This document shows positions 31,721 through 46,285 of a stretch of 64,000 nt of DNA, piece after piece. Under the pieces are notes generated by a model. The model saw nothing but the letters and a program-made list of their open reading frames with translations, made no database searches and was not told the DNA's origin. Position 1 is the first letter of the stretch, and the number at the start of each line of letters is the position of its first letter. The position numbers were made by a program, and so were the translations under genes. Source of the DNA: Methanobacteriota archaeon (lineage in GTDB: Archaea; Halobacteriota; Methanosarcinia; Methanosarcinales; Methanosarcinaceae); NCBI GenBank assembly GCA_030054735.1, contig JASGVX010000003.1, positions 1,532 to 65,531 of the forward strand. Direction: 5' to 3'.

Positions 31721-31749
31721 TAAGAGTCAAAATTAATTTTCTAATTTCC

Positions 31750-34533
31750 TCAATTCATTTTTCTAATTAGCAGTTTCCTCACAACTTTTCTCTTTTCACC
31801 TTTTTCGAGAGTTTCATTTTCTGTAGCTTCGAAGAGCTCAGTCCATGCCTTGAAACGGTAATTGCTGCCCGCTCCAAGGTCCCTGATCCTTATCTCAAAG
31901 GGCTTTTCTCTAGTAGCTTCCTTTTGCCCTGCGAGTTTTTGGTGGAATGTTTTTGCTGCGGCTTTTTCCGGAGAAGGAGCTGAGACAACTCCAATCAATC
32001 CTCCATTTTCATCCGTGGCAATGAAGGTTTTTTCCTTTTTCTTCTGCTCTGCCTGAGCTTCCTGTTTTATGCTTTCCCGCCTGAGCTGTCTTCTGACCCT
32101 GTCAAGGGCACCTCCTGCATCCTTTTTTTCTTGTGGGTCTGTCCCTGGGGGTCTGGATTCAGAAAGATGTTTTTCTTTTTTTTCGGGAGGAATGTAAGGA
32201 TCTTTTCCCAGGAGTTCATGCAGGAGCATAATTGCCGCATGCTTATCAAGAGGCTCGTTGTTGTTCCCGCACTTTGGGGACTGGATACAGCCAGGACAGC
32301 CGCTTTCACAGGGGCAGCTTTCAATAGCCTTTAAGGTGCCTTCCAGGACCTCTTCTATCAGGTCATAGCCTTTTTCGGCATACCCAACTCCCCCCCTGTG
32401 CCCGTCATAGATGAAAATCCCGCTTTTACCACCGAGGTCGGGATGGGACGGAGTTGAAACCCCTCCTACGTCACTCCTGTCCACAAGCAGGTGCAGAGGG
32501 TACATGGAAATCATTGCATGCTCAACAGCATGAATCCCGCCAGCAAAATCCAGCTTATTGTCCCCTATCAGCTCCTGCATCCTGTCAGGAAGCTTAATCC
32601 AGAGCGCAACTGTCTGGAGGGTTATAGGAGGCATTTCAATATCATGAGCGCTCATTGTCTCATTGTTGTAGGTCCGGATTTTCCTGTAGCCTATAATTCT
32701 ATCTGTTACCTCCACATCCCCAAGCCCAAGCTCTACCTCAGGAGCATGCAGGAGAGGCTTTACCGCATAAGTCTCCTGCACCAGTACGGACGAATCTATC
32801 ATGGGTTTTGTATAATAGCTATCATACGTCTTTACGGCATGAATTTCCTTTTTCTCATGGTCGATCCTGTTTATGTAGAAAGGTTCCCCCCTGTGCATGT
32901 AGACTGCACCCGGGTGGCACTCCCGGAACGCCAGAGCCTCTTCGATTTCTTTTTCTATGGGAAAGCTCCTTTCTCCTTCAAAAGCAAGCAGAGAGTAAGT
33001 ATTATTGTCAATTCCCCGAAGGGAGACATGTTTATAAGGGAAAGGGTCAGTAGAATATTTCAGGTCGCTGCCTGCGAGCAGCCCTTCTGCTTCAAGGAGC
33101 TCTACAACTCTTGAATACTCCATGCCAAAGAACTTTTCATCTGATTCTCTGAGAGGGACTTCTTTTGCTGCACAGAGCAGGTGCCCTGTAAGGATATAGG
33201 GGTTTTTAGGGTTGAGCACTGCATTTTCGCTGCTTCTTGCAAAGAAGTCGTTGGGGTTTCGCATATAATACTGGTCAAGAGCATTTGTCCCGGCTACCAT
33301 AAAGACAAGGCTTTCATTTCCGCTCCTGCCCGCCCTTCCTGCCTGCTGCCTCGCGTTCATAACCGTCCCCGGATAGCCGTCAAGAATACAGGCATCAAGC
33401 CCACCGATGTCTATTCCGAGTTCAAGGGCGTTTGTGGAAATAATACCCCTGAGCTCTCCAGAATTCATTTTCTTTTCTATATCTTCCCTTTCCCTGTCAA
33501 AATAGCCGCTTCTGTATGAGCAGATCGAAGAAGAGAGCGCACGTTCTCTCAAAAGTTCCCTGCAACTCTTATACATTCTCTCCACCCCCTGCCTTGACCT
33601 GGTAAAAACAAGGGTCTGGAGCCCGGCCTGGACTGCCCGGACAAAAAGAGCCGAGGTTTCGGAAAAGCTGCTTTTCCTTACTGTGCATCCTCTCCCATTC
33701 AGGTAAAGAGGTGGATTCCAGAATACAAATCTCTGGGGGCCCTGTGATGAACCGTTATTCTCAACCACCTCTACTTTCCTTCCCAGCAGAGTTTCAGTAT
33801 GCTCTTTTGGGTTCCCTATGGTCGCCGAACAACAGATGAACTGTGGGGAAGATCCATAGTATTCCACAACCCTGAGGAGCCTTCTGAGCACGTTTGCCAT
33901 ATTGCTCCCTATAACTCCCCTGTAATAGTGGCTCTCGTCAATAACAATGAATTTAAGGTTTGAAAAAAAGCGCCTCCAGAGGTGGTGCCAGGCAAGAAAA
34001 CTCATGTGCACCATCTCAGGGTTTGTGAAAACAATATTTGTCTGTCCTTCCCTGATTTCTCTCTTCTGGGATGCAGTCAAAGCTCCAGTATAACGGGCTA
34101 TGCCTGCCCCGGAGTTCAGTGACTTTTCAAATTCAAGGAAAGCTTTTAACTGGTCGTTTACAAGGGCATTGAGAGGAGAGATATAAAGTGAAGTAGCCTC
34201 AGGGTCATTCATAATGGCTTCAAAAATAGGGACCATGTAAGTAAGGGACTTTCCGCTTGCTGTGCTTGTGCAGAGCACCAGGTCTTTTCCTTCACGGATT
34301 TTTTCTATTGCTTCAACTTGATGGGAATAAAGAGCTTCAATCCCAATACCTGAAAGGGCAGCCCTTATCTGCGCCCTCAGTTCAAGAGGTGCATAAATGG
34401 CATCTCTTGCAGGAGTTTCTTCAATATGAACTATCTGGTTTTCATAACGGCTGCTAGCTTTAATTTCATTCAGCAGGCGGGAAATTTCCATTTTTCTACT
34501 CCATTTTATTTCATCCACTTTATTATACGCCAC
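31750..34533 (-). CDS. Hrq1/SftH/MrfA-like SF2 helicase with DUF1998 and a C-terminal MC1-like domain
   Basis: TASGKSL, IDESH, SATIGNP, STNALELGIDIG, QQAGRAGR; C-C-C-C DUF1998 cluster (CPCESGCPGCIQSPKC). Start may be ATG 34491. Confidence 0.92.
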   Translation of the reverse strand: MAYNKVDEIKWSRKMEISRLLNEIKASSRYENQIVHIEETPARDAIYAPLELRAQIRAALSGIGIEALYSHQVEAIEKIREGKDLVLCTSTASGKSLTYMVPIFEAIMNDPEATSLYISPLNALVNDQLKAFLEFEKSLNSGAGIARYTGALTASQKREIREGQTNIVFTNPEMVHMSFLAWHHLWRRFFSNLKFIVIDESHYYRGVIGSNMANVLRRLLRVVEYYGSSPQFICCSATIGNPKEHTETLLGRKVEVVENNGSSQGPQRFVFWNPPLYLNGRGCTVRKSSFSETSALFVRAVQAGLQTLVFTRSRQGVERMYKSCRELLRERALSSSICSYRSGYFDREREDIEKKMNSGELRGIISTNALELGIDIGGLDACILDGYPGTVMNARQQAGRAGRSGNESLVFMVAGTNALDQYYMRNPNDFFARSSENAVLNPKNPYILTGHLLCAAKEVPLRESDEKFFGMEYSRVVELLEAEGLLAGSDLKYSTDPFPYKHVSLRGIDNNTYSLLAFEGERSFPIEKEIEEALAFRECHPGAVYMHRGEPFYINRIDHEKKEIHAVKTYDSYYTKPMIDSSVLVQETYAVKPLLHAPEVELGLGDVEVTDRIIGYRKIRTYNNETMSAHDIEMPPITLQTVALWIKLPDRMQELIGDNKLDFAGGIHAVEHAMISMYPLHLLVDRSDVGGVSTPSHPDLGGKSGIFIYDGHRGGVGYAEKGYDLIEEVLEGTLKAIESCPCESGCPGCIQSPKCGNNNEPLDKHAAIMLLHELLGKDPYIPPEKKEKHLSESRPPGTDPQEKKDAGGALDRVRRQLRRESIKQEAQAEQKKKEKTFIATDENGGLIGVVSAPSPEKAAAKTFHQKLAGQKEATREKPFEIRIRDLGAGSNYRFKAWTELFEATENETLEKGEKRKVVRKLLIRKMN

Positions 34534-35118
34534 ATTCTGCTAATCCACATAGGACTGATATTTTATTTCACTTTCCGCAGTAAAATATCGGGATTTTATA
34601 TTTTTTAAATCATGTAAGTAATTTTTATAAAATTTCTTTCAGTTTTACCTTGAGAACCCATTTCCAGCCCATAATCTACAACTCAAACACCTTAATAAAA
34701 CACAGACACCAAGCATGAAATGAGTACTCTTTCGGTTCAGGAGAGAAAGTTTTTTTCTCCTCCATCATATACATATTTTTAAAATAGTTGAGCTGTCAAC
34801 TGAATCATATTTTTCACTACATTATAAGTTGCAAAGATATCCCAATATTTAAATATGTCTCTTAATTTTTGAGAAATTACGCTCATTGATGCCCATTTTA
34901 CACAGAATAAGTATTTATACAACTATATCAATTATACTATTGATAAAACATAATACTATTAAACAAGAATAATACGAATGGCTTACCGGGGGGTAGCAAT
35001 GAGTGTTTTGATTTGGAAAAAATCCCAGTTATTATTACAGCTTTTACAACAGTTGCTGGAGAATAATGAACTGGCAAGAGGATATGGGTTATAAAACGCA
35101 TAGATTTGCATGCCTGTA

Positions 35119-35157
35119 GTGAACTATCTCTGAGCTAAAGACTCAGGAGTTTTACGC
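35119..35157 (-). mobile_element. isolated IS200/IS605-type terminal hairpin
   Basis: Minus strand AAACTCCTGAGTCTTTAGCTCAGAGATAGTTCAC. Confidence 0.55.
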
Positions 35158-35313
35158 TTATTCATATAAATGTTTGCTTTTCAGAACAAATTTACAAAAT
35201 ATAAAATCTGAATAAAAAACGGAAGTTAAAAATAGTAATTAGATTGGGTAATGAGAAATTAATATAAAAAATATGAGATAAATATAGAAAAAAAAGTTTG
35301 GGAGTGGAACCAG

Positions 35314-35505
35314 ATGACGCTTTCTAACCTGACTGAGGCTGAAAAAATGATTTTAATGGATGAAACGGTTGCCGACTTTAAACGCTCATTAGAATTTGCC
35401 ATTAAAAATTTACTTGCAGAATACAAAACAGACCTTGAAACTAACCTTGATATTTCGAAAGTCGATGTAAGCTTCATTGTAAAAATGGACGGAATTGAGG
35501 TATAA
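35314..35505 (+). CDS. small hypothetical protein (63 aa)
   Basis: ATG start in an AT-rich gap; acidic, plausible composition; no recognised motif. Confidence 0.5.
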   Translation: MTLSNLTEAEKMILMDETVADFKRSLEFAIKNLLAEYKTDLETNLDISKVDVSFIVKMDGIEV

Positions 35506-35519
35506 GGTTTATCACTTCA

Positions 35520-35575
35520 AAAGTGCGGGTTCCATAGATACCCTTCTTTGAGGTAGGGGTTGAAGTGAACTCGCG
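35520..35575. mobile_element. degenerate IS200/IS605-like end
   Basis: ...ATACCCTTCTTTGAGGTAGGGGTTGAAGTGAAC hairpin resembling a recurring Methanosarcina element end (from recall). Confidence 0.4.
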
Positions 35576-35789
35576 CCAGCTTTTTTTCCTGTGTTTTTGA
35601 CTAATTAGATAATTGTATATTGTTATATAGTGATACCTGGTGTTTTAAAGGTTAAATATTGATACAGATCAATGATTTATCGAGATTTATGGTTTTATGA
35701 TACCTAACCTGGGCGCATCAAAATATTCAGGCAAGGGTATGTCCTAAAATCCAGTTAATATTTAGTAGAGTTTTTGTGGCTCAATTACT

Positions 35790-37622
35790 CTAATTCTTTT
35801 TAATTTTTGCGCTCTCTTCGCTCAGCCCTGCCCATATTACCCTATACCCCAGGTGTTCAAGCACAGGATAATAGAGACTGCTATCAATCCCGAATTCCTC
35901 AAAGACTTTAACCGCATCGGCGTAAGTCTTCACAGCTCCTGGTTTTTCAAGCTCAAGATTTATTCGCTCAAGTAGCTGCCTGTGGACTAGATAATTTTCA
36001 AGAAGCACATAATCTCTGTATTTTCCGGACTCTTCATACCCTTCAATTTCTTCTTTCACTCCGAATTTGTCAGGTTTCCGAATTTCTGCAAATCTCTCTG
36101 CAAGCTCTTCTTTTAAAGCTTCAGGCATAACTCCTCTGGCGTCTGCGATTTCTTTAAGGCTGACCAGTTCCCCAGAAAGAGATATCTCTGTGCCACAGAG
36201 CTTTAACCTGTCTTCTGCAAGCCTTTTTTCCTCGTATTTTCTAAGCACCTGTGTGACTTCATTTGCCGGAATCTTCCTGTCAAAAAAAATCACGTCCTGT
36301 GCAGGAAAATCTTTTTCAGAGCACTTGAGTTTTCTATTAATCAGGAGAATAACAGGTTCTTTTACATCTTTGAGTTTCTCAGTTTTCTTTTTAAGGTAGT
36401 CAGGAGTCCAGAAGCCAACAATCTCTGCATAAACTTTTATCCCATTCTTCTGCATGGAAAAGTCTGGAACAAAAGCGAAGCGGCCTGCTTTTAAAATCGT
36501 AGGCTCCCTTTTTATCTCCCAGCCCCCGAAACTGAAGTTTGCAAACTGCTGCTCATAAGTGCTGTCGAAAGCTTCACTTTCAGTATCTGTTTCTGCGTCC
36601 TGAGTTCCAGATTCCCTGTCTATAAATTCAGGATCTTTTTCGATTCCTGTTCTGGTCCCGGCTTTGTATTCTTCCTGTCCTTCCGCAAGATGAAAGTCGA
36701 GAGAAATCCCATCAGGATCGTCACCAGGTGCTCTGGATATAAACCTGAAAGCTTCTTCAGAGTCGTCAAGGGCAAATTCGAGGACTCGCTTTCCCTGGTA
36801 ACCTTTGTGCAGAATACCTGCCTTCAATCTCCAGCCCTTTGATTTCAGGAGAATCGGAAAGAGTTTGGCAAAAGAATTACCATACCGTTCCGACATTCTG
36901 AAAAGTGATGCAGGGCCATCAAGGTGGAGGTGAACGCTTTTTAACCTTTCAGGGTCTTTGTTTTCATCCATTCTTTTACTATCTCTATTTCCTCCTTCTA
37001 TTTCCTGCTTTCCGCCTTCTATTTCCGGTGTATCCTCAAGGGAATACATAAGTCCAGACTTGAGGATTTTCCAGAGGACTCTCTGAAAATCTCCTCTAAT
37101 CCAGATATCCAGGTCAACAGCACGGAAAAGCAGGGTCTGGGTCAGGGAAATATTATACTGCCTTAAGAGTTCTGCAGGAGCTGGAGGATTGAATTCTTTG
37201 AGGACCTGGTTTTCCTCAAGGTCTGCCCACAAAGATTTTTCAAGGTCAGGAACTGAAATTGAAAGATTTCTTGCGGCTATTTGCAGCGACTTTTGCCTTT
37301 CGGCAGGAAAAAGGGCCATTCCCTCACAGGCTTCAAAGACAGCTTCCCTGGCTCTGGAAGGGTCAACGGCTGAAGAGGTCTCGACCAAAGCCTTCCTTCC
37401 CAGAAGCTGTGAAAGACCCCGTATAAAGCGGTAGTTCATCTCTTCATAGCCTTCAAGTTCTGCAAGCAGGTCGCCGTAAGTTTTTCCGACATGCTGCTTG
37501 AATGTCTCTATAAGAAGCTCTGCAAGCTCAAGGTTTTCCGAGTCAAAAACTGCATATGCAGGCCGGATCTTACCCCTGGAGATATGGGTTACAAGGAGGT
37601 CAGATGTCAGCATGAGGGGCAC
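35790..37622 (-). CDS. DUF790 / Bax1-like endonuclease (XPB partner)
   Basis: LTSDLL, YNISLTQTLLF, GPASLF...RYG, FVPDF...EIVGFWTPDYL; overlaps the XPB gene end. Confidence 0.88.
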   Translation of the reverse strand: MPLMLTSDLLVTHISRGKIRPAYAVFDSENLELAELLIETFKQHVGKTYGDLLAELEGYEEMNYRFIRGLSQLLGRKALVETSSAVDPSRAREAVFEACEGMALFPAERQKSLQIAARNLSISVPDLEKSLWADLEENQVLKEFNPPAPAELLRQYNISLTQTLLFRAVDLDIWIRGDFQRVLWKILKSGLMYSLEDTPEIEGGKQEIEGGNRDSKRMDENKDPERLKSVHLHLDGPASLFRMSERYGNSFAKLFPILLKSKGWRLKAGILHKGYQGKRVLEFALDDSEEAFRFISRAPGDDPDGISLDFHLAEGQEEYKAGTRTGIEKDPEFIDRESGTQDAETDTESEAFDSTYEQQFANFSFGGWEIKREPTILKAGRFAFVPDFSMQKNGIKVYAEIVGFWTPDYLKKKTEKLKDVKEPVILLINRKLKCSEKDFPAQDVIFFDRKIPANEVTQVLRKYEEKRLAEDRLKLCGTEISLSGELVSLKEIADARGVMPEALKEELAERFAEIRKPDKFGVKEEIEGYEESGKYRDYVLLENYLVHRQLLERINLELEKPGAVKTYADAVKVFEEFGIDSSLYYPVLEHLGYRVIWAGLSEESAKIKKN

Positions 37623-39084
37623 CTTTCCCGCTTTCAGGGCTTACTTTTCCTGTCCCCTGATTTTTTATTCCTGTCTTTTCTTTTTCTGCTTTTTTCCGGG
37701 GACTTCCTTCTGGACTTTTTCTGGAAGAGAAAGCCTCTTTTCTTCTCTTTGCAGTTCCCATTTCAGTGGTTTCTTCAGCAATAATTTCATAAAGCATAGC
37801 TTCCTTTCCTTCTTTTTTCCTCAGGATCCTTCCAAGGCGCTGGACATATGCCCGTTTGCTTCCTGTCCCGCTTGCTATAATTCCTACATTTGCTTCCGGG
37901 ACATCGATACCTTCGTCAAGCACCTTTGAGGTAACTACAGCCCTGTACCTGCCCTGCCTGAACTTTTCGAGAATGGAATTTCTTTCTTTTGGAGGAGTCC
38001 TGTAAGTGATCGCAGGAATAAAAAAGGCATTGGAAATCCGGTGCACAAGCCGGTTGTGTTCCGTGAAGATAAATACTCTATCTTCTCTGTGCTGCACAAG
38101 GATCTCTCGTAATTTTTCTATTTTAGAATAACTGTTAAAGGCAATATCTCTTGCTGTATTTCTTGCAAGGAGGGCTTTTCTGGCTTCAGGGTCCCTCCCA
38201 CTTTTCATGACCAGCTTTTGAAAGTCCTGCGGGCTTCTCATTATCATGCCGGTTTTTCTGATGTAGTCAAGGAATATGGCATAATTCTGATCATACTCTT
38301 TTTGTTCTTTGCCTGTGAGCGTCACATTAATCCGTTTTATCGTATAAGGGGAAAGGTGCTTCCCTGCAAGTTCCGATACCTTTTTTTCATAAACCTTACC
38401 CCCTGCAAGCTGGTTGAGTTCAGTATGCAGCCCGTCTTCCCTTTCATATGTGGCTGTAAGCCCGAGCCTGCAAGGCGCTGCGGAAAACTCGGCAATGCTC
38501 CTGTAAGCGGCTGCAGGAAGGTGATGAACTTCATCAAAAATTATGAGGCCGAACCTGTTCCCAAGGGTTTCGGCGTGAATATAGGCAGAGTCATAGGTGG
38601 AAACCGTTATTGGAAGAATTTTCTTTTCCCCGCCCCCAAGCTTTCCGACTTCCATTGAAAAGGCTTCCTCAAGCTCTTTCTTCCACTGTTCAAGGAGGTC
38701 CAGGGTTGGGACAAGTACAAGGGCAGGGGTGTTGCAACTCGAAATTGCCCGGATACCGGTTAAAGTCTTTCCGCTTCCTGTAGGCAGGACAAGAACTCCC
38801 CATTTTTCATTTTCCCCCCAGGAAATAAGAGCTTCTGCCTGATAATCTCTTAATTTCAACTTCTTTCCCGAAGCTTCGTAAGCCGCTGTAAGGTCAGGAC
38901 AGGGAAGAAGGTCAAGGACAGCATCTTCAAAATCAACCCCAGAATTTTTCAAATAACTGATAGTATCTTTGTAGTACATTGCAGGAGCCCTGAAACTTCC
39001 GCTCCTTTCATCCCATACTGAATTCGGAACCCTGATATTTCCTTTTATGAGAATAGTTCCCTGCTTGAAGCTGATTTTTACCAT
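37600..39084 (-). CDS. xpb: XPB/Rad25-family helicase
   Basis: LRDYQ, PTGSGKT, FDEVHH, GLTATYER, VLDEGIDVP, QRLGRILR. Confidence 0.92.
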   Translation of the reverse strand: MVKISFKQGTILIKGNIRVPNSVWDERSGSFRAPAMYYKDTISYLKNSGVDFEDAVLDLLPCPDLTAAYEASGKKLKLRDYQAEALISWGENEKWGVLVLPTGSGKTLTGIRAISSCNTPALVLVPTLDLLEQWKKELEEAFSMEVGKLGGGEKKILPITVSTYDSAYIHAETLGNRFGLIIFDEVHHLPAAAYRSIAEFSAAPCRLGLTATYEREDGLHTELNQLAGGKVYEKKVSELAGKHLSPYTIKRINVTLTGKEQKEYDQNYAIFLDYIRKTGMIMRSPQDFQKLVMKSGRDPEARKALLARNTARDIAFNSYSKIEKLREILVQHREDRVFIFTEHNRLVHRISNAFFIPAITYRTPPKERNSILEKFRQGRYRAVVTSKVLDEGIDVPEANVGIIASGTGSKRAYVQRLGRILRKKEGKEAMLYEIIAEETTEMGTAKRRKEAFSSRKSPEGSPRKKAEKEKTGIKNQGTGKVSPESGKGAPHADI

Positions 39085-40001: not shown

Positions 40002-40123
40002 CAAAAGGAAATATGAACCAGTAATGTGTCAGTAATTATTATTTTATGAATATTATTCACAAAATAAAAATATTACTCTCCAATTATTACTCTACAGGTG
40101 GTAATTAAACTTTTGTGAAAAAA

Positions 40124-40380
40124 GATCCAGTATCTATAAATGTGGTGATAGTTGAGCCACATGTTAAGCAATAGATGAAATATGACTTCAAGTTTTCACT
40201 TTGCTAATGGCTCTATAATTGCACTTCCCAATATCATTAATGACATTATGGAGTATAGTGTTTGGAATTAAATTTTTACCATTCCTAAGCAACTTTCAAT
40301 TTCATTTCTAGTTAGGAGTTACCATAAAACGACATCAAGAAAAATGTTCTGATTTTTAATGTCAACCTGCCGAATGCAGG
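40124..40380. repeat. repeat A (plus copy) interrupted by repeat B (40172-40285) between TAAGCAA direct repeats
   Basis: 40124-40171 + 40293-40380 match the reverse complement of 45090-45225; the insert matches 45939-46050. Confidence 0.85.
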
Positions 40381-40416
40381 CTAAATTAATTTGATTTATT
40401 TCAAAAACGTTATCAG

Positions 40417-40490
40417 GAAAAACGCACATGAAATTCTTCGAATAACAGGCACAAAAAATGAAAGTACATGGAAGCACTTTCATGCTAAAT
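40417..40490 (+). repeat. 74-bp dispersed repeat, copy 2
   Basis: Three mismatches to 13280-13353. Confidence 0.9.
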
Positions 40491-40579
40491 ATTGATTTTT
40501 GAAAAATACTGTGAAATAAGGGTTACTCAAAAACCTGACCTGCTATTCAAGGTTTCCAGGAAGAGATATTTCACCAGGG

Positions 40580-43078
40580 TTATTTGCGGGATAAACTTAT
40601 AATCTCATCAATTTGTTGTGCACGGTTTTTCCATGTATTCTCCTTTGCTTCTTTATCAAGCAAAGCTAGATAGGGTTTATCCTTTTTTAATTTCAGGCCT
40701 TCATCAATCTTTTTGATAAAATCTTCATAATCTTTTCCTATTAAAACTGAGCTGTATTTCCTGCATTCTCTCATATCAGTAGTGACTATCGGCGTGCCAA
40801 GTGCCATATATTCAAAAATTTTTATTGGTGATGTAGATTCTGTAACTTCGTTTAATACAAAAGGAATTATAGAAACATCAAACCATATAGCATACTCTGG
40901 AAGAACTGGATATTTTTTTACTCCCAAATAGTGAATATTATCATAATGATCCAATCTATGATCCTTCATACTCCTGTCATAGTCCCATCCAACAAGTACT
41001 ATTTCATAATTTGGCCTTTTTTCTGCTAGTTCTATTATAAGTTTGTAATCAAACCATGTTGCAAGTGCCCCATAATATCCGATTATCGGGTTTCCTTTTT
41101 TTATAATTGGTCTGAGATCAGACGGGATATTTTCAGGGTTTCTGGTGATATGGAAGTGTTCGTAATCCACGCCATTTGGATTGAGATATACATCGTTTTG
41201 CCTTATTTTTGTTACATCATCGAACAGTTTATCTGCTGTTGCAATGACAACATCAGCAGACTTTATTAGATATTGGTGACGGCGAATTATATTTTCAATA
41301 GAAGTGCCGGAAATATCTTCGGAAATTTCGTCGATGTATTCATAAATAATGAATGCCTTAGACATCAGGCTCTGAATACCATTAAGAGTAATTGCCATAT
41401 TAGTGGATGAAAATAAAAGAATGAATTCTGGTAACTCTTTTATTAATAGGTCGTAACAATTTGTTATATAACACCTATCTTCAATTTTTTGAAAACCTTC
41501 CACATGATCATACTCCTTGCTTCCCGACGAGAAGAAAAATAAATAACCCTCTCTTGAGAGTTGTAATGCAAGTTGTTGAGGGCGTTGAAATAGAGGAATA
41601 TTCCAATCAACTGTCGGAGGATATATGATAATTCCCTTAATCTTACCTTTGTGTTCTTCTAAAATATTATTAAATTCTAATTTATACAGATTTTCTTCTT
41701 CAGCATTATTATTAGAATAAGATTCAGATTTATTGGGACCCACTATCCAATTGAGAAGAGGAGTAACAATTTTTGTTATAGGAGAATTAACGCTGAAATA
41801 TTTCCCGTAATACTGGCTAAATCTCCATGATAATGAACTTTCTCTTTGATTTAGTGTTTCTTTTAAGTCAAGAATTTCATTTGTTTTGTCTTCGAGTTGA
41901 GATTTGAAATCCGAGCTTAGATTTTGCAACTCTTTTATTTTGTTGTCTTTTTCTCCAAGTTTAGATGTGAGATCAAAAGCTACACTTTGCAATTTATGGA
42001 TCTTATTATCCTTTTCTTCAAGCTGGGAGATAAAGTCATCAGTTGCGTTTTGCAATTCATGGATCTTATTATCCTTTTCTTCGAGCTGAGACATAAAGTC
42101 AGCAGCTACATTTTGCAATTCATGGACCTTATTATCCTTTTCTTCGAGCCGGGATATAAAGTCATCAGTTGCGTTTTGCAATTCGTTTATTTTCTGACTT
42201 AACTCATTAACTTCAGTATTTTTATTTTCAAGATAGGAATTTAAAGAAGAAAAATCAAAGTAATACGTATCATTTTCAATTTTTGATTCTTTTCTAAGTA
42301 CATTTTCAATTATTTTTTCATAATTAGACGGGGTATCCTTATTTTTAGGACGTGCTATCAATGCAATTAAATAATTTTGTTCCTGTGGAATAAGTTGTTG
42401 ATCTATATCCCTATATTTTGCTCCCAGTTTGGAATTGACGTAATCAAACAGATCGTAGGTAAAATGCCTTCCAATATATTGTTCTTCAATAACTTCAAGC
42501 CCTGCAGCTTCTGCAAGATGTTTCATGGAGTCTCTGAGCAGTTCCCTCCCCCATATCCAGTCACCTTTTTCCATTGCATGTTGGCGAAATAGAAGATAAG
42601 GCACACTCATTGCATTTGGTACGAGAACAAGGACATATTTTCTGGTAACCTGCTTCATTTTTTTCAAAACTTCAATGACTTCCCAGGCATTAAAATGCTC
42701 AAGTACTCCTGAATTCCAGACAACGTCGTGAGGTTCGACCAGGTCGGCAGATAGGTCAAACATGTCTGCATTAATAAAATTTCCTGTAATATTATTTTGT
42801 TCATAATGCTTTTTTGCTTTTTCCAGAGCTACTTTACTAAAGTCAATAAGTGTTGTCTGAAAACCTCTACCTGCAAGATATCCCGACAAATGCCCACTCC
42901 CAGACCCAACTTCTAGTAAAGAGGAACCAGGTTCAATTCCCAATCCTAATAATAATTGCTCAATCTCTTGACCGAGTTTAATTTCCGAAGTGTTTGCGGT
43001 GTCAGAATAAGTCTCTGCTACATTATCCCACAATTGAGGCGATTGAGAATTAATTGTTATATTGTCATTTTCTTTCAT
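40580..43078 (-). CDS. class I SAM methyltransferase + 21-aa-repeat coiled coil + GT4 (TuaH-like) glycosyltransferase
   Basis: LLEVGSGSG, WNSGVLEHF; five ELQN...LEEKDNK repeats; SLSWR; FQRPQQLA, PNGVDYEHF, SPIKIFEYMALGTPIV. Confidence 0.85.
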   Translation of the reverse strand: MKENDNITINSQSPQLWDNVAETYSDTANTSEIKLGQEIEQLLLGLGIEPGSSLLEVGSGSGHLSGYLAGRGFQTTLIDFSKVALEKAKKHYEQNNITGNFINADMFDLSADLVEPHDVVWNSGVLEHFNAWEVIEVLKKMKQVTRKYVLVLVPNAMSVPYLLFRQHAMEKGDWIWGRELLRDSMKHLAEAAGLEVIEEQYIGRHFTYDLFDYVNSKLGAKYRDIDQQLIPQEQNYLIALIARPKNKDTPSNYEKIIENVLRKESKIENDTYYFDFSSLNSYLENKNTEVNELSQKINELQNATDDFISRLEEKDNKVHELQNVAADFMSQLEEKDNKIHELQNATDDFISQLEEKDNKIHKLQSVAFDLTSKLGEKDNKIKELQNLSSDFKSQLEDKTNEILDLKETLNQRESSLSWRFSQYYGKYFSVNSPITKIVTPLLNWIVGPNKSESYSNNNAEEENLYKLEFNNILEEHKGKIKGIIIYPPTVDWNIPLFQRPQQLALQLSREGYLFFFSSGSKEYDHVEGFQKIEDRCYITNCYDLLIKELPEFILLFSSTNMAITLNGIQSLMSKAFIIYEYIDEISEDISGTSIENIIRRHQYLIKSADVVIATADKLFDDVTKIRQNDVYLNPNGVDYEHFHITRNPENIPSDLRPIIKKGNPIIGYYGALATWFDYKLIIELAEKRPNYEIVLVGWDYDRSMKDHRLDHYDNIHYLGVKKYPVLPEYAIWFDVSIIPFVLNEVTESTSPIKIFEYMALGTPIVTTDMRECRKYSSVLIGKDYEDFIKKIDEGLKLKKDKPYLALLDKEAKENTWKNRAQQIDEIISLSRK
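41870..42184 (-). repeat. 63-bp (21-aa) intragenic tandem repeat x5
   Basis: ELQNATDDFISRLEEKDNKVH and four variants. Confidence 0.92.
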
Positions 43079-43308
43079 GGTATCAAAATTTAGAGATTTG
43101 TTTGTATAGAAGATGAACTGCTAGCCATACCAAAACCAGAAAATAGGTATAGATTATTTTATAATAATTTTTGAATCGATTTTATTGGCGGGAAAAGCTC
43201 TTATTTCAAAGATATCTCATGAATCTTGATCAGTCTTTCCCCATTAAAAGGGAAAAGAACGATATATATTTTTTGAGAATGAAAATATATAAAAAGTTGT
43301 TGAGATAA

Positions 43309-43512
43309 ATGTATCCAATACTTAGAAGATTAATTTGTCCTTTTGACGAGGTTATTCGATATATCCCTTCCTATGGCAAATTACTTGACGTTAGGAGTGG
43401 ATATGGCATATTCTGTTCTGCATTAGGAGAAGAAAAGCCTAATCTCAAGATAATAGGAATAGAAATTGATAAATTTTGGTTTAGAAGCTATTTGTTTTTA
43501 TTAATATTGTGA
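43309..43512 (+). pseudogene. truncated class I SAM methyltransferase fragment
   Basis: KLLDVRSGYG (degenerate motif I) ...IIGIEID, then ends. Confidence 0.6.
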
Positions 43513-43999
43513 GATGGTAGCAAAGGAGTTGAAAAAGTTAATAGAGAACTCCAATTTTGATTTAAACACTGAATAGAGCCTGGTCTAAAGCTTGATGGAT
43601 AGAAGAAAAGTCTCATCAAGAAGGCTATTGAACCGGAAAAATGCTCCTTCAGGAAATAGATTTACCACTTATGAAAAAAACTTACTTGAAAACAACCAGG
43701 TCTCATAAGCCATGGAAAAATAAAGCCGTATGTAACCAGATTTTTATTATGAGATAAATACCTAATTTTTGTCTTGTCTGAAGCCCTATTCATTGTCTCT
43801 TCTACAGACCGAAAGACTGTTATTTCATACCCGCATGATCATCTGCAGGAACATTCTATTCATAACTGAAAAATCTCAGCTTCCTGAACAAGCAAATTTT
43901 AATTTACCATTTTAACTGAAAGCCTTTAATAAGAGTTCTGCAAATTAAAGTCCAAATCCATAACAGAGTTAATACAAAAAATAGATAAGACGTTATTAT

Positions 44000-45052
44000 A
44001 TGATCATAACAAATTTTCTAATTCTTTTACTTGGCCTGGTTTTCCTGGTGAAGGGCTCAGACTATTTCGTGAAATCTGCCTCAGAGATTGCAAAAAAGCT
44101 TGGAGTTTCTGAATTTGTTATAGGGCTGACCCTTGTGGCAGTAGGTACATCAATTCCGGAACTTGCTTCTTCTATTGTTGCTTCTATTCAGCAGGCAAGT
44201 GGTATAGTAATAGGAAACGTTGTAGGCTCAAACATTGTAAACATAGGTTTGATTGTTGGGCTTGCTGCATTTCTTTCTCCGATGAAAACCGAAGTTGAGA
44301 TGCTCAGAAGAGATGGCTATATAATGCTCTTTGCAGCCGTGCTTTTCTTTGTTTTTGCACTCAACGGGGAATTGTCGAAAATTGAGTCCGGCTTATTTTT
44401 ACTGCTGTATATTGCATACACATTTTTCCTGTTTGAAGAAGCAGAAAAATATGACGGAAAACCCTATTTCAAAGAGTTCATAAAGTATTTTTTAAAATTC
44501 CAATATATTAACAGTGCAAGGCAAAAAATCAATGATATAAACAAAGGTGTAAACCATGCTAAGAACTCGGATACGGGCGAAAAAAACGAACAGTTAAAAG
44601 ACGGCTTTGCAAAAGATATCCTTACCCTTATTTTAAGCTGTGCAGCTATTATATTAGGAGCAAAATATTTCGTTAACGAGTCAATATTTTTTGCGGAGCT
44701 CCTGAAACTTCCTGATACTATAATAGGCACAACTCTTGTTGCAGTAGGGACCTCCCTTCCTGAGCTTGCTGTGACTGTATCCGCAGCAAGAAAGGGTTAC
44801 GGAAAAATTGCCCTCGGTAACATAATAGGTTCAAACATCACAAACGTATTTATGATCCTCGGGATTTCAGGGCTTCTATACCCCATAACTGTTGCAGATA
44901 TAAGCCTATTCTTTACGACTCCTGTAATGATATTAATAAGTGTGGTTCTGCTAATTTTTATCAGCACAGGCTGGGAAATAAAAAGATGGGAAGGAGCAGC
45001 ATTGATGGTTCTTTATGCAGCTTTTCTTCCAGTGCTCTTCAGGATTAGCTGA
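44000..45052 (+). CDS. calcium/sodium antiporter (CaCA, YrbG-like)
   Basis: Two alpha repeats GTSIPEL / GTSLPEL and GNVVGSN / GNIIGSN. Confidence 0.93.
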   Translation: MIITNFLILLLGLVFLVKGSDYFVKSASEIAKKLGVSEFVIGLTLVAVGTSIPELASSIVASIQQASGIVIGNVVGSNIVNIGLIVGLAAFLSPMKTEVEMLRRDGYIMLFAAVLFFVFALNGELSKIESGLFLLLYIAYTFFLFEEAEKYDGKPYFKEFIKYFLKFQYINSARQKINDINKGVNHAKNSDTGEKNEQLKDGFAKDILTLILSCAAIILGAKYFVNESIFFAELLKLPDTIIGTTLVAVGTSLPELAVTVSAARKGYGKIALGNIIGSNITNVFMILGISGLLYPITVADISLFFTTPVMILISVVLLIFISTGWEIKRWEGAALMVLYAAFLPVLFRIS

Positions 45053-45089
45053 AAAATATTTGTTCAGAATGGTTGAAATATGATTTCAA

Positions 45090-45225
45090 CCTGCATTCGG
45101 CAGGTCAACATTAAAAATCAGAACATTTTTCTTGATGTCGTTTTATGGTATCCACTATCTAGAAATGAGATTGAAAGTTGCTTAACATGTGGCTTAACTA
45201 TCACCACATATATAAATACTGGATC
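45090..45225 (-). repeat. repeat A, uninterrupted inverted copy, preceded by palindrome GGTTGAAAT-atg-ATTTCAACC (45071-45091)
   Basis: Reverse complement matches the split copy at 40124-40380. Confidence 0.85.
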
Positions 45226-45456
45226 ATTTTTTCATAAAAGTTTAATATGATATATTGTTAATTGATCATATGTAAACCTAAAAGTTAGGTACAAATACTA
45301 TGTATTATTTCAAAATCGGCCTCAATAAAAATTATAAAAAATTAAATGTCACCTGCCGAAAGAAGGATTTAAATTCTAATTTATCATTATTATTTTTAAA
45401 CCGTCTCATTGCATGACCCAGGTATTGTCATTATCTCAGGACAGGAGGTGAATAAG

Positions 45457-45942
45457 ATGGCTAATGAAGACAAAAAAGATTTTAATGCTATGTTGCATGA
45501 TAGCAAGGATATGCCTAAATTTAAGATTATCACAGATGAGCCAAGTATTAAAAAATATGGTGGAAATAGAATGTACTTTGCTCCTCCAATTGACTATGAT
45601 GCCATCATGAAAATGATACCACGTGGGAAAGTTATCACTGTTGGAAAAATTCGTGAGTATTTTGCTATTAAATCAGGTGCAGATTTTACAGAGCCAATCA
45701 CAGCAGGTATTTTTGTGTCTATCGCTGCATGGGCAAGTCATCAAAGAGTAGATGATAAAACTCCTTTCTGGAGGACACTGAAAGCAAATGGCGAACTGAA
45801 TGAGAAATATCCCGGTGGTGCAATGGCACAAAAAGAAAAACTGGAAAAAGAGGGACACACTATAATCCAAAAAGGCAGGAAAAATATCAGATACTTTGTT
45901 AAAGACTATAAGTGTGCTCTCTTTGAATTAAGGATTGATTGA
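45457..45942 (+). CDS. alkyltransferase-like (ATL/MGMT DNA-binding domain) protein
   Basis: IPRGKVIT; PFWR in place of PCHR; GELNEKYPGG...Q..KLE.EG; SD GGAGGTG. Confidence 0.8.
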   Translation: MANEDKKDFNAMLHDSKDMPKFKIITDEPSIKKYGGNRMYFAPPIDYDAIMKMIPRGKVITVGKIREYFAIKSGADFTEPITAGIFVSIAAWASHQRVDDKTPFWRTLKANGELNEKYPGGAMAQKEKLEKEGHTIIQKGRKNIRYFVKDYKCALFELRID

Positions 45943-46050
45943 AATATAACTTCAAGTTTTCACTTTGCTAATGGCTCTATAATTGCACTTCCCAATATCA
46001 TTAATGGAAATGTAGGAAATAAGTCATTGAAATTAAATTTCTGCCATTCC
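45939..46050 (+). repeat. repeat B, copy 2
   Basis: tgaaatat(a/g)acttcaagttttcactttgctaatggctctataattgcacttcccaatatcattaatg shared with 40176-40242, weaker match beyond. Confidence 0.88.
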
Positions 46051-46054
46051 TTAG

Positions 46055-46285
46055 AAATATGTTTTTCAGTGTTCGCCTATGCCATGGGTAAGATATACCT
46101 AGATTTCGCACAGCAATTCCGGAAAGAGAGATAATGCTACTCCGCTGTTTGATTGGGGAAAGTATTGTGAAAAGGATGCTAAATTAATGATACCTATTTC
46201 TGTTAAGGCAGATCATTCTTTTGTTGATGGTATTCATATTGCTGAGTTTGTGAATATGTTAGAAGAAGATCTGAATAGTTTTTAG
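46055..46285 (+). pseudogene. cat: C-terminal remnant of a chloramphenicol acetyltransferase (CatA-like)
   Basis: VFQCSPMPWVRYT*ISHSNSGKRDNATPLFDWGKY...ADHSFVDGIHIAEF; internal TAG at 46100; 5' half absent. Confidence 0.75.

What the first reader, a model, noticed from the sequence alone, without database searches (positions are those of the whole stretch)
40580..43078. Methyltransferase-coiled coil-glycosyltransferase: candidate archaeal glycan chain-length ruler
A capping-type MTase is separated from a GT by five exact 3-heptad repeats followed by an SLSWR amphipathic segment. This echoes bacterial WbdD/WbbB/WsaE, where coiled-coil length sets polysaccharide length and methylation terminates it. 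The 63-bp units can expand or contract in register. The GT resembles TuaH (GalNAc/GlcA teichuronic acid), chemically akin to methanochondroitin (inference).
Basis: partly seen in the sequence, partly recalled or inferred. Interest (0 to 1): 0.66.

Follow-up and report, generated by a model that had tools for sequence, protein, structure and literature searches.

The report
Archaeal methyltransferase–coiled-coil–glycosyltransferase, orphaned copy
This Methanosarcina gene encodes a sugar-chain-building enzyme and a methyl-adding enzyme held about 21 nm apart by a repeat-built rigid rod, a layout bacteria use to cap and measure surface polysaccharides; here it is an expressed single gene that has moved away from its usual export gene cluster.

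Summary
The 832-aa ORF (40580-43078, minus strand) is real. It has an N-terminal class I SAM methyltransferase, one unbroken ~160-residue heptad helix, a conserved SxSW[RK] junction and a C-terminal GT4-like GT-B glycosyltransferase. The five 21-aa units are in phase but not exact: DNA identity is 87-94% for units 1-3 and about 60-68% for units 4-5.

Relatives support a glycan terminator–spacer–transferase of an ABC-transporter-dependent pathway (WsaE/WbbB/WbdD-like):
- Methanosarcina and Nitrosopumilus orthologues sit beside Wzm/Wzt-type exporters, AglJ-like and GT4 genes, and AglB.
- A Lysinibacillus orthologue directly follows wzm and a wzt that carries the cap-binding Wzt_C domain.
- Close relatives carry 2-5 units, and their lengths differ by multiples of 7 residues.
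- All four combinations of methyltransferase or pyruvyltransferase with either of two GT types exist, joined at the coil.

Caveats:
- In this genome the gene is solitary, low in GC and bracketed by high-copy repeats, though transcribed. A homologous exporter cluster occurs elsewhere at equal read depth.
- Archaeal Wzt proteins lack the cap-binding module.
- There is no specific homology to WbdD or WbbB.
- The TuaH match is far below cut-off, and the methanochondroitin link is unsupported.
- Ruler function is inferred, not shown.

The parts
40580..43078 (-). Complete ORF, 832 aa: methyltransferase, coiled coil, SxSW junction, GT4-like glycosyltransferase
   Evidence: ORF list. Pfam and NCBIfam domains. 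N-terminus aligns with homologues. GC is 34.0%, the lowest of all ORFs in the window. Metatranscriptome contigs cover it at 100% identity.
42332..43054 (-). Class I SAM-dependent methyltransferase domain (aa 9-249), SAM motif LEVGSGSGH
   Evidence: Pfam Methyltransf_25/23/31/11. AlphaFold2 pLDDT is mostly above 90. PDB profile hits are generic class I methyltransferases (3mgg 1.5e-12, 1ve3, 6mro), with no WbdD among the best 60. It is 85-91% identical to the N-modules of P0002, P0007, P0009 and P0011.
41843..42322 (-). Continuous coiled-coil helix (aa 253-412, about 160 residues; heptad-regular for about 20 heptads, roughly 21-24 nm)
   Evidence: AlphaFold2 gives a single helix, residues 252-411 in model numbering, which is true numbering minus 1. 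The 3.5-residue periodicity has z = 11.9, with one register, 0 Pro and 1 Gly. Coordinates verified.
41870..42184 (-). Five in-phase 63-bp / 21-aa units (aa 299-403): consensus ELQNxxxDFxSQLEEKDNKIx
   Evidence: Unit table and identity matrices. TRF period 63, 3.2 copies, 88%. Relatives have 2-5 units, and length differences are multiples of 7.
41705..41842 (-). Post-coil junction (aa 413-458) with the conserved SxSW[RK] motif (SLSWR = 41822-41836) and an aromatic/basic then hydrophobic stretch; candidate membrane or partner docking element
   Evidence: The motif's Ser and Trp (S415 and W418 in true numbering) are conserved in at least 90% of 39 homologues (the call lists them as S414 and W417, which is true numbering minus 1). 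The same motif ends the stand-alone methyltransferase-coil proteins of Brucella/Ochrobactrum. pLDDT is below 50. Amphipathicity is only moderate.
40583..41704 (-). GT-B fold, GT4-like glycosyltransferase domain (aa 459-832), 'type A' module
   Evidence: Pfam Glyco_trans_1_4 and Glycos_transf_1. Foldseek top hits are MshA, PimA, BshA, WaaG and HepE, E about 1e-13 to 1e-10. NCBIfam TuaH scores 87.6 bits against a cut-off of 550. It is 78-86% identical to the C-modules of P0002, P0003, P0004 and P0006, but only 24-26% to the type B modules of P0007, P0009, P0011 and P0083.
43079..43307 (-). Upstream region conserved with orthologous loci (putative promoter and 5' leader)
   Evidence: blastn homology with L003 and L004 extends about 225-230 bp upstream of the ATG and then stops.
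40104..40491 (.). High-copy interspersed repeat mosaic immediately downstream of the stop codon; marks the end of homology with orthologous loci
   Evidence: Contig depth is 500-3000 against 15-27 for flanking single-copy DNA. Inverted copies lie at 45080-45246 and a direct copy at 45928-46057. Homology with L020 ends 57 bp after the stop.
45080..45360 (.). Inverted copy of the same repeat family on the far side of the Na/Ca-exchanger gene; the assembly contig carrying the gene (40477-45123) ends in these repeats
   Evidence: the repeat finder I1, I2 and I5, 90-95% complementary. High depth and contig ends.

Best explanation
The gene encodes a single-polypeptide 'modifier, spacer, transferase' enzyme of a lipid-linked (dolichol-phosphate) surface-glycan pathway that uses a Wzm/Wzt-type ABC exporter. 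It is an archaeal counterpart, in layout, of WsaE, WbbB and K. pneumoniae ORF6-O7.

Proposed mechanism:
- The C-terminal GT4-like domain and the SxSW junction sit at the cytoplasmic face of the membrane and add sugar(s) to the growing chain.
- The parallel coiled coil of about 20 heptads holds the N-terminal SAM-methyltransferase about 21-24 nm away.
- Only chains long enough to reach that site are methylated at their non-reducing end. Methylation stops extension, so coil length biases modal chain length.
- The coil is built from 21-aa (three-heptad) units. Gain or loss of units changes its length in register. The unit array also serves as a recombination joint where terminator and GT modules are exchanged.

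In this particular genome the gene, with its own roughly 230-bp upstream region, has been separated from the exporter/GT cluster. It sits alone between high-copy repeats and is still transcribed.

Shown: the domain architecture, the coiled-coil character, repeat-number variation, module exchange, the cluster context in relatives and transcription.

Inferred: methylation of a glycan terminus, chain termination, membrane association, oligomeric state and the ruler effect.
For: Architecture:
- Domains and order are methyltransferase, coil, GT.
- The coil has one unbroken heptad register over about 160 residues, z = 11.9, and forms a single AlphaFold2 helix. The length is comparable to the ~200 A WbdD ruler (PMC5082667).

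Context of orthologues:
- P0002 (76% identical) and Methanosarcina UBA10923 (90% DNA identity) are followed by a PMT_2 GT-C, a Wzt-like NBD, a Wzm-like permease, two GT4s and an AglJ-like Dol-P-hexose GT2.
- P0009 and P0083 lie beside AglB, a UDP-GlcNAc 2-epimerase and GT4s.
- Nitrosopumilus P0015 lies next to ABC_tran + ABC2_membrane + GT4.
- The Lysinibacillus orthologue directly follows wzm and a 425-aa wzt carrying the Wzt_C cap-binding domain. This is the wzm-wzt-wsaE order described for the S-layer glycan cluster, where the WsaE N-terminal methyltransferase makes the terminating 2-O-methyl cap (PMC2943079).
- Brucella/Ochrobactrum have the methyltransferase-coil-STSWR module alone, next to an 800-aa dual-GT4 protein. 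This is a WbdD/WbdA-like split.

Length variation and modularity:
- Close relatives have 2-5 units, with anchor-to-anchor differences in multiples of 7. The family range is 61-261 residues.
- Terminator-type modules are swapped: methyltransferase versus pyruvyl transferase, with terminal pyruvate known for K. pneumoniae O1 (PMC11231755). This happens on the same coil + GT, and two GT types occur on the same methyltransferase + coil.

This genome:
- The same digester samples contain an 8.3-kb contig about 93% identical to the Wzt-Wzm-GT4-GT4-GT2 cluster. Its depth matches that of the gene (26.1 vs 26.9; 9.2 vs 8.6; 10.7 vs 15).
- The gene is covered by metatranscriptome contigs.
Against: - In the window itself no glycan gene or exporter lies within 64 kb. 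The PMT_2 gene that follows the orthologues was not found in the samples.
- Wzt proteins of the archaeal clusters are NBD-only (242-250 aa, no Wzt_C). PMC11231755 states that all terminated O-antigen systems carry a CBM on Wzt, and that CBM-less systems (K. pneumoniae O2a) set length by coupling to export.
- The methyltransferase is a generic class I enzyme with no specific similarity to WbdD. Nothing shows that it acts on a sugar, or only on the terminal one.
- There is only one GT domain, which suffices as a polymerase only for a single-linkage homopolymer or together with other GTs.
- The junction is not convincingly amphipathic, and its model confidence is low.
- No repeat-number polymorphism was seen within the samples.
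- For WsaE, methylation was chain-length independent in vitro (PMC2943079).
Confidence: 0.55

Rival explanations
1. It is a bifunctional glycan-decorating enzyme in which the coiled coil is only an oligomerisation or scaffold element. The methyltransferase (or pyruvyl transferase in the allelic forms) modifies internal or every-repeat residues and does not terminate chains. Chain length is set by coupling to a CBM-less exporter, as in K. pneumoniae O2a.
For: - Archaeal Wzt partners lack the cap-recognising Wzt_C domain. PMC11231755 links CBM-less transporters to export-coupled length control.
- Extra stand-alone methyltransferases in the clusters show that methylation there is not only a cap.
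- WsaE methylation was length-independent in vitro (PMC2943079).
- No homology to WbdD.
Against: - A simple dimerisation element need not be about 160 residues long, kept in strict heptad register, hypervariable in length (61-261 residues) and always placed between the modifier and the GT.
- The bacterial orthologue does sit behind a CBM-bearing Wzt.
- The split Brucella form mirrors WbdD/WbdA.
Confidence: 0.28
2. The copy in this genome is a functionally stranded remnant. It was displaced from its cluster by repeat-mediated rearrangement or horizontal transfer and no longer contributes to glycan synthesis.
For: - It is a solitary gene with the lowest GC in the window: 34.0% against 40.1% for the window and 45-47% for its flanking helicase and HD-domain genes.
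- It is bracketed by high-copy repeats.
- Homology with orthologous loci is limited to the gene plus about 230 bp upstream and 57 bp downstream.
- The adjacent PMT_2 gene of relatives is missing.
Against: - The 832-codon ORF is intact and keeps all conserved motifs.
- The upstream region is conserved.
- RNA contigs cover it at levels like its neighbours.
- A homologous exporter/GT cluster occurs at the same depth in the same samples. Enzymes of such pathways can act in trans (PMC11231755).
Confidence: 0.12
3. It is the methanochondroitin (GalNAc/GlcA polymer) synthase or its length regulator, as the first reader inferred from the TuaH resemblance.
For: - The best NCBIfam hit of the GT domain is TuaH, E 7.7e-25.
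- Methanochondroitin genes are still unidentified (PMC12369344), so the role is vacant.
Against: - The TuaH score is 87.6 bits against a cut-off of 550.
- The fold and family are GT4-like (retaining), whereas methanochondroitin is beta-linked (PMC12369344).
- A single GT domain would have to make a three-linkage repeat.
- The family occurs in Nitrosopumilus, Methanoregula and Bacillota, which are not known to make this polymer.
- Relatives sit with AglB and AglJ-like genes, which points to protein-linked glycans.
- The gene is absent from most representative Methanosarcina genomes scanned.
Confidence: 0.03

Closest known systems
WsaE of Geobacillus stearothermophilus NRS 2004/3a (S-layer glycan: N-terminal 2-O-methyltransferase plus two rhamnosyltransferase domains; PMC2943079)
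   Same: - An N-terminal methyltransferase is fused to glycosyltransferase module(s) in one protein of an ABC-transporter-dependent, protein-linked glycan pathway.
- The Lysinibacillus orthologue of the window protein sits in the same wzm-wzt-gene order.
- Distant full-length hits (27-29% identity, about 1060-1150 aa, methyltransferase + GT2 + GT) from Paenibacillus, Saccharibacillus and Carboxydocella have a WsaE-like composition.
   Different: - The window protein has one GT4-like GT-B domain instead of two rhamnosyltransferase domains.
- It has a long repeat-built coiled coil and an SxSW junction.
- It is archaeal.
WbbB (K. pneumoniae O12) and ORF6-O7 (K. pneumoniae O7): single polypeptides with an N-terminal terminator, a coiled-coil ruler and C-terminal polymerase GT modules (PMC11231755)
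   Same: - The order of parts is the same: terminator-type enzyme distal, coiled coil in the middle, GT proximal.
- ABC-exporter context in orthologues.
- Modules are distributed and exchanged between systems.
   Different: - The catalytic families differ. WbbB has a GT99 Kdo transferase with GT102/GT103. ORF6-O7 has a methyltransferase-kinase with two GT2s.
- No detectable homology beyond generic folds.
- Only one GT domain.
- The archaeal Wzt partners lack the CBM.
WbdD/WbdA of E. coli O9a / K. pneumoniae O3 (PMC5082667, PMC3482155, PMC11231755)
   Same: - A methyltransferase-containing terminator is held about 20 nm from the membrane by a coiled coil, followed by a membrane-proximal C-terminal element.
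- The predicted coil here is of similar length.
- Stand-alone methyltransferase-coil-STSWR relatives next to a dual-GT4 protein in Brucella mirror the WbdD/WbdA split.
   Different: - There is no kinase domain.
- The GT is fused rather than recruited.
- WbdD is not among the PDB sequence or fold matches.
- The trimeric state is unknown.
- The coil is built of recent 21-aa tandem repeats.
TuaH (B. subtilis teichuronic acid GT; NCBIfam NF047676)
   Same: It is the best-scoring named NCBIfam model for the GT domain, aligned to model positions 112-380. Both are GT4-like GT-B enzymes.
   Different: - The score of 87.6 bits is far below the 550-bit equivalog cut-off.
- The N-terminal third of the model is not matched.
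- No teichuronic-acid context.

Membership tests
Coiled-coil terminator/ruler proteins of ABC-transporter-dependent glycan assembly (WbdD, WbbB, ORF6-O7, ORF7-O4 class; an architectural class, not one homologous family) | A chain-terminating enzyme at the membrane-distal (N-terminal) end of the coil | tested here: inconclusive
   A class I SAM methyltransferase is at the N-terminus. Allelic forms carry a pyruvyl transferase instead. Whether it acts on the terminal sugar and terminates extension cannot be told from sequence.
Coiled-coil terminator/ruler proteins of ABC-transporter-dependent glycan assembly | An extended coiled coil separating the terminator from the membrane or polymerase | tested here: met
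   One unbroken heptad register over about 160 residues, z = 11.9 against shuffles. AlphaFold2 gives a single helix. Oligomeric state not tested.
Coiled-coil terminator/ruler proteins of ABC-transporter-dependent glycan assembly | A membrane-proximal C-terminal region carrying polymerase GT module(s) or a recruitment site and a membrane-binding helix | tested here: inconclusive
   A GT4-like GT-B domain and a conserved SxSW[RK] junction are present. Amphipathicity is only moderate and the model confidence is low. Polymerase activity is unknown.
Coiled-coil terminator/ruler proteins of ABC-transporter-dependent glycan assembly | Genetic linkage to a Wzm/Wzt ABC exporter and other glycan genes, in this window | tested here: not met
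   Neighbours are an XPB helicase, DUF790, an HD-domain protein and a Na/Ca exchanger. No GT or glycan exporter lies in the 64 kb. A homologous Wzt-Wzm-GT cluster exists in the same samples at equal depth but on another contig.
Coiled-coil terminator/ruler proteins of ABC-transporter-dependent glycan assembly | Genetic linkage to a Wzm/Wzt ABC exporter, in orthologous loci | tested here: met
   Linkage is seen in L003, L004 and L020 (Methanosarcina), L088 (Nitrosopumilus) and L007 (Lysinibacillus).
Coiled-coil terminator/ruler proteins of ABC-transporter-dependent glycan assembly | Wzt carries a C-terminal carbohydrate-binding module that recognises the terminal cap | tested here: not met
   The archaeal Wzt-like proteins are 242-250 aa and NBD-only. 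The feature is met only in the Lysinibacillus locus, where Wzt_C PF14524 scores 1.8e-23.
Coiled-coil terminator/ruler proteins of ABC-transporter-dependent glycan assembly | Changing coil length changes modal glycan length | not testable with these tools
   This needs genetics and glycan analysis. Natural variation of 2-5 units, in multiples of 7 residues, is documented, but no glycan data exist.
WbdD / WbbB as homologous families | Detectable sequence or fold similarity to the WbdD methyltransferase-kinase or the WbbB GT99 domain | tested here: not met
   WbdD and WbbB are absent from the phmmer hits, from the best 60 profile hits and from the top 50 Foldseek hits.
TuaH (NCBIfam NF047676 equivalog) | Whole-protein score at or above the curated cut-off of 550 bits | tested here: not met
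   87.6 bits, matching only model positions 112-380.
GT4-like GT-B glycosyltransferases (Pfam Glycos_transf_1 / Glyco_trans_1_4) | Pfam score above the gathering threshold, and a GT-B two-Rossmann fold resembling GT4 structures | tested here: met
   PF13692 scores 38.1 bits (cut-off 27) and PF00534 scores 32.9 bits (cut-off 26.4). Foldseek hits to MshA, PimA, BshA and WaaG have E 1e-13 to 1e-10 and TM (target) 0.6-0.7.
Class I SAM-dependent methyltransferases | Rossmann-like fold with the glycine-rich SAM motif I, and Pfam score above threshold | tested here: met
   PF13649 scores 51 bits (cut-off 27). The motif LEVGSGSGH has invariant G50, G52, S53 and G54 in the family alignment. Structural matches are 4htf, 8joz and 3mgg.
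WsaE-type multifunctional S-layer glycan enzymes | An N-terminal cap-forming O-methyltransferase fused to repeat-unit GT domains, encoded directly after wzm-wzt | tested here: inconclusive
   The layout and the gene order in the Lysinibacillus orthologue agree (PMC2943079). However, the GT module differs (one GT4-like domain against two rhamnosyltransferase domains), and no direct alignment with WsaE could be made.

The most novel reading that the evidence does not exclude
Methanosarcina, and other archaea such as Nitrosopumilus and Methanoregula, make long, end-capped, length-controlled polysaccharide chains on dolichol phosphate by a bacterial-type Wzm/Wzt pathway. The chains are then attached to surface proteins (AglB-adjacent loci). 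Chain length is set by a coiled-coil ruler that evolves by slippage of 21-aa units. The repeat array is also the recombination joint through which cap enzymes (methyl or pyruvyl) and transferase modules are mixed and matched between strains, and cap recognition by the exporter is dispensed with.
Probability: 0.3. Interest if true: 0.7.

Novelty: new variant of a known kind. Interest (0 to 1): 0.5.

Why it matters
Known archaeal N-glycans are short oligosaccharides, and how archaea move lipid-linked glycans across the membrane is still unclear. A widespread archaeal protein family with the hallmark layout of bacterial chain terminators/rulers, encoded beside Wzm/Wzt exporters and AglB, would point to an ABC-transporter-dependent, length-controlled polysaccharide pathway in archaea.

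It would also offer a very tractable test. Natural alleles with 2-5 repeat units, and with methyl or pyruvyl cap modules, already exist. The repeat-built coil used as an exchange joint for catalytic modules may also be useful for glycoengineering.

For this particular window the finding is more modest: a relocated, still-expressed single copy of such a gene. The general ruler principle is already established in bacteria, and archaeal homologues of one such protein have been mentioned in passing (PMC11231755).

Tried and rejected
- PDB sequence search with the whole protein and with a methyltransferase-domain profile, plus Foldseek of the full model, looking for WbdD or WbbB. Only generic class I methyltransferases and GT4 enzymes were found.
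- TuaH membership is rejected on score.
- Search for repeat-number polymorphism in the metagenomes that hold the gene. Contigs of X1, X5 and X10 match the window exactly. Related strains in X13-X19 gave only one unclean joint (41911 to 42238, 326 bp, intervening letters unknown), which is not interpretable as unit loss.
- The apparent 5.8-kb 'skip' joints (40257 to 46027 and others) have only 22-45 nt on the short side and lie inside repeat copies. I treat them as repeat artefacts, not as a deletion variant.
- I tried to lay the samples' contigs on the AglB-adjacent locus L004, to ask whether this organism also has a type-B paralogue.
- The loose-end sequence next to the exporter contig was searched in the window to link the two loci. 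No match.
- Helical hydrophobic moment of the SLSWR stretch is too low to call it an amphipathic helix.
- The 92-aa ORF at 41924-42202 (+) is the antisense reading of the repeat array, not a gene.
- An N-terminal-domain database search meant to pull out a named WsaE returned no named WsaE. It did reveal the stand-alone methyltransferase-coil proteins.


Full report
**1. What is in the sequence**

The finding's coordinates match an intact ORF on the minus strand, 40580-43078, 832 aa, from ATG to stop (start and stop verified).

Domains:
- Pfam places a class I SAM-methyltransferase at the N-terminus: Methyltransf_25 2.5e-13, also _23, _31 and _11, at aa ~40-200.
- A GT4-type C-terminal half is found at aa ~660-795: Glyco_trans_1_4 2.3e-09 and Glycos_transf_1 5.7e-08.
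- Only weak coiled-coil-like matches lie in between.
- The best NCBIfam hit is TuaH at 87.6 bits, against an equivalog cut-off of 550. This is family-level similarity, not identity of function.

AlphaFold2 (39-sequence alignment, mean pLDDT 85) gives four parts:
- a confident methyltransferase domain;
- one continuous helix of 160 residues;
- a low-confidence linker (pLDDT below 50);
- a confident two-Rossmann GT-B domain.

Numbering note: I trimmed the wrong end of the minus-strand range when building alignment A1. Model and alignment residue n is therefore true residue n+1. In true numbering the helix is 253-412, SLSWR is 415-419 and the GT domain is 459-832. Coordinates were verified.

Foldseek against the PDB matches the GT domain to GT4 retaining enzymes (MshA 1.3e-13, PimA, BshA, WaaG, HepE). 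It matches the methyltransferase to generic small-molecule or tRNA methyltransferases.

**2. The repeats and the coil**

- Five consecutive 21-aa units occupy aa 299-403 (window 41870-42184).
- They are in one phase but not exact. Units 1-3 share 87-94% DNA identity. Units 4 and 5 share about 60-68% with units 1-3. TRF reports 3.2 copies at 88%.
- Over aa 252-411 the hydrophobicity has a sharp 3.5-residue periodicity: z = 11.9, with none of 2000 shuffles reaching it.
- There is a single unbroken register. The a positions read KRNFLVITLVALITLIALISLIL and the d positions read ESYLKLLFKLFKLFKLLKLFKL. The segment has no proline and one glycine.
- At about 0.15 nm per residue, this is roughly 21-24 nm. 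That is similar to the ~200 A ruler of WbdD (PMC5082667).
- The oligomeric state could not be tested.

**3. The junction**

- After the coil comes RESSLSWRFSQYYGKYF...
- The Ser and Trp of the motif are conserved in at least 90% of 39 homologues from archaea and bacteria.
- The same motif (ESTSWRLTSPIRY) forms the C-terminal end of 383-aa stand-alone methyltransferase-coil proteins in Brucella intermedia and Ochrobactrum.
- So it is a real, conserved element that marks the membrane-proximal end of the coil in both fused and split forms.
- It is aromatic and basic but not strongly amphipathic as a helix (muH 0.2-0.3). A more amphipathic, proline-containing stretch follows.
- Membrane or partner docking is therefore an inference.

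**4. Relatives: length variation and module exchange**

Eighty-five homologues were found.

Length variation:
- Among the close Methanosarcina group, the number of 21-aa units is 5 (window), 3 (P0002), 4 (P0009), 5 (P0011), 3 (P0007, P0004, P0083) and about 2 (P0021).
- I measured the distance between a conserved methyltransferase anchor and the motif Trp. Relative to the window it differs by -49, -42, -7 and -7 residues. For P0009 it differs by -22, which is -28 plus a 6-aa insertion in the pre-coil linker. The coil changes are all multiples of seven.
- Across the whole family the spacing ranges from 61 to 261 residues.
- In-register expansion and contraction has therefore occurred repeatedly.

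Module exchange:
- The methyltransferase module is 85-91% identical among the window protein, P0002, P0007, P0009 and P0011.
- The GT module comes in two types that are only 24-26% identical to each other.
- Type A (window, P0002, P0003, P0004, P0006) is 78-86% identical to the window module. Type B (P0007, P0009, P0011, P0083) is 83-94% identical to P0009.
- The N-terminal module can instead be a polysaccharide pyruvyl transferase: P0004 (type A GT) and P0083 (type B GT) are 92% identical in that part.
- All four combinations exist, joined at the repeat-built coil (53-72% identity).
- At the DNA level, homology between the window and the P0009 locus runs from about 230 bp upstream of the ATG into the repeat array and stops there.

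**5. Genomic context**

In the window the gene is solitary:
- On one side are XPB-type helicase and DUF790 genes and an HD-domain gene. On the other are a 67-aa ORF and a Na/Ca exchanger.
- There is no glycosyltransferase or glycan exporter anywhere in the 64 kb.
- Its GC content (34.0%) is the lowest of all ORFs. The window is at 40.1%, and the helicase and HD-domain genes beside it are at 45-47%.

Orthologues are clustered:
- P0002 (76% identical) and Methanosarcina sp. UBA10923 (90% DNA identity) are followed by several genes:
  - a PMT_2 GT-C enzyme;
  - a 242-aa Wzt/TagH-like NBD;
  - a Wzm-like permease;
  - two GT4s;
  - an AglJ-like dolichyl-phosphate hexose transferase.
- P0004 has the same start of this arrangement.
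- P0009 and P0083 lie a few kb from AglB, with a UDP-GlcNAc 2-epimerase, GT4s and an acyltransferase. In the P0009 locus, PMT_2 and Wzm/Wzt are also present.
- A Nitrosopumilus orthologue sits with ABC_tran, ABC2_membrane, a GT4 and two methyltransferases.
- In Lysinibacillus sp. LZ02 the orthologue directly follows wzm and a 425-aa wzt that carries the Wzt_C carbohydrate-binding domain. It lies in a cluster with a Wzy_C-type ligase/oligosaccharyltransferase-like gene. This is the wzm-wzt-wsaE layout of S-layer glycan clusters, in which the N-terminal methyltransferase of WsaE forms the chain-terminating 2-O-methyl cap (PMC2943079).
- The Brucella stand-alone methyltransferase-coil protein is adjacent to an 800-aa dual-GT4 protein. 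This is reminiscent of WbdD/WbdA.

**6. This organism**

- The gene occurs, base for base, in anaerobic-digester metagenomes.
- In three such samples, an 8.3-kb contig about 93% identical to the Wzt-Wzm-GT4-GT4-GT2 cluster of UBA10923 is present. Its depth matches the gene's contig: 10.7 vs 15, 26.1 vs 26.9, 9.2 vs 8.6.
- The PMT_2 gene that separates the two in relatives was not recovered.
- The gene's assembly contig (40477-45123) ends on both sides in short repeats of very high copy number (depth 500-3000). These are present as inverted copies (40104-40390 against 45080-45246) and direct copies (40164-40292 against 45928-46057).
- Homology with orthologous loci ends 57 bp past the stop codon, at that repeat.
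- The simplest reading is that the gene, with its own upstream region, was separated from the cluster by a repeat-associated rearrangement.
- Metatranscriptome contigs from the same samples cover most of the gene at 100% identity, at depths like those of the neighbours. It is therefore probably expressed, with the usual caveat about DNA carry-over.

**7. Interpretation**

[quoted passage not shown] The features are:
- a modifier distal to the membrane;
- a long in-register coil of variable length;
- a conserved membrane-proximal junction;
- a GT domain;
- linkage to a Wzm/Wzt exporter in relatives;
- a CBM-bearing Wzt in a bacterial relative;
- interchange of methyl- and pyruvyl-transferase modules.

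I therefore favour a terminator-spacer-transferase of a dolichol-linked, ABC-exported surface glycan (confidence 0.55).

What is shown is architecture, coil character, natural length variation, module exchange, context and transcription. Glycan methylation, termination, membrane association, oligomerisation and the ruler effect itself are inferred.

The main counter-evidence:
- The archaeal Wzt partners are NBD-only. In all characterised terminated systems Wzt carries a cap-binding module, and CBM-less systems set chain length differently (PMC11231755).
- There is only one GT domain.
- The methyltransferase is generic.
- WsaE methylation was length-independent in vitro (PMC2943079).

A scaffold-only coil with a non-terminating decoration is the main rival (0.28). 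A stranded remnant (0.12) and a methanochondroitin role (0.03) are less likely.

**8. Comparison with the known and novelty**

- It works like WsaE, WbbB, ORF6-O7 and WbdD, but it is not a homologous member of the WbdD or WbbB families.
- It is not a TuaH equivalog.
- The principle is established in bacteria. Archaeal homologues of ORF6-O7 in Methanoculleus have been noted in passing (PMC11231755). The idea of an archaeal ruler is therefore not entirely new, but no archaeal system has been characterised.
- This methyltransferase-coil-SxSW-GT4 family, its tandem-repeat coil, the four-way module exchange and the absence of a Wzt CBM make it a new variant of a known kind.
- The methanochondroitin link is unsupported. 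That polymer is beta-linked and its genes are unknown (PMC12369344), and this family is widespread outside Methanosarcina.

**9. Verdict**

- Interest is 0.5.

Noticed in passing
window 40104-40491, 45080-45360, 45928-46057; also 13280-13354 and 61555-61585: A mosaic of short interspersed repeats with very high copy number in the digester metagenomes (contig depth 500-3000 against 15-27 for flanking DNA). Inverted and direct copies bracket the 4.6-kb segment that carries the gene and the Na/Ca exchanger. RNA contigs also pile up on 40170-40637. The element type (MITE-like?) was not determined.
   Followed up: partly
L004 10001-12457 versus L087 10001-12799 (AglB-adjacent loci of two Methanosarcina genomes): At the same AglB / epimerase / GT4 locus, one strain has methyltransferase-coil-GT(type B) and another has pyruvyl transferase-coil-GT(type B). 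This is an allelic swap of the presumed cap enzyme. The L087 locus has no Wzm/Wzt within 10 kb.
   Followed up: partly
L089 8001-11606 (Brucella intermedia GCA_032062405.1): A stand-alone methyltransferase-coiled-coil protein ending in ESTSWRLTSPIRY lies next to an 800-aa dual-GT4 protein (a WbdD/WbdA-like pair). The region also encodes Mtd_N and ddrB-ParB domain proteins, which suggests a mobile or phage-related element.
   Followed up: no
window 27627-39084 (-): A run of DNA-repair or remodelling helicase genes: an SNF2/DUF3670 helicase (27627-30878), an Hrq1/MrfA-like DEAD helicase with an MZB zinc domain (31750-34533), DUF790 (35790-37622; my reading, not tested here: Bax1-like nuclease partner of XPB) and an XPB-type helicase (37600-39084).
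   Followed up: no
window 43309-43512 (+): A 67-aa ORF with no Pfam match, called in public assemblies and divergent from the gene's upstream region. It is covered by a metatranscriptome contig (43322-43516).
   Followed up: no
window 407-3334 (+): A 975-aa predicted surface protein with LamG-like, polysaccharide deacetylase and three PKD domains. It is another cell-surface or glycan-related gene in the window but is 37 kb from the finding.
   Followed up: no
window 41924-42202 (+): A 92-aa ORF that is simply the antisense reading of the 63-bp repeat array (its translation is itself repetitive). Not a gene.
   Followed up: yes
L020 770-2194; L003 12674-14104; L086 8631-10055; L004 15219-16649: A conserved 474-476-aa PMT_2-family GT-C protein lies downstream of the orthologues, and it was not recovered from the window organism's samples. 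Together with the AglJ-like GT2, it could form an extracytoplasmic glycan-modifying or glycan-transferring step.
   Followed up: partly
P0015 versus P0016/P0017/P0018 (Nitrosopumilus): Near-identical thaumarchaeal orthologues differ by a 32-aa insertion made of 14- and 18-residue coil units (LKNDLTLEKQTVST...). Coil-length polymorphism by tandem units is therefore not restricted to Methanosarcina. This change is 4 heptads plus a 4-residue stutter.
   Followed up: partly
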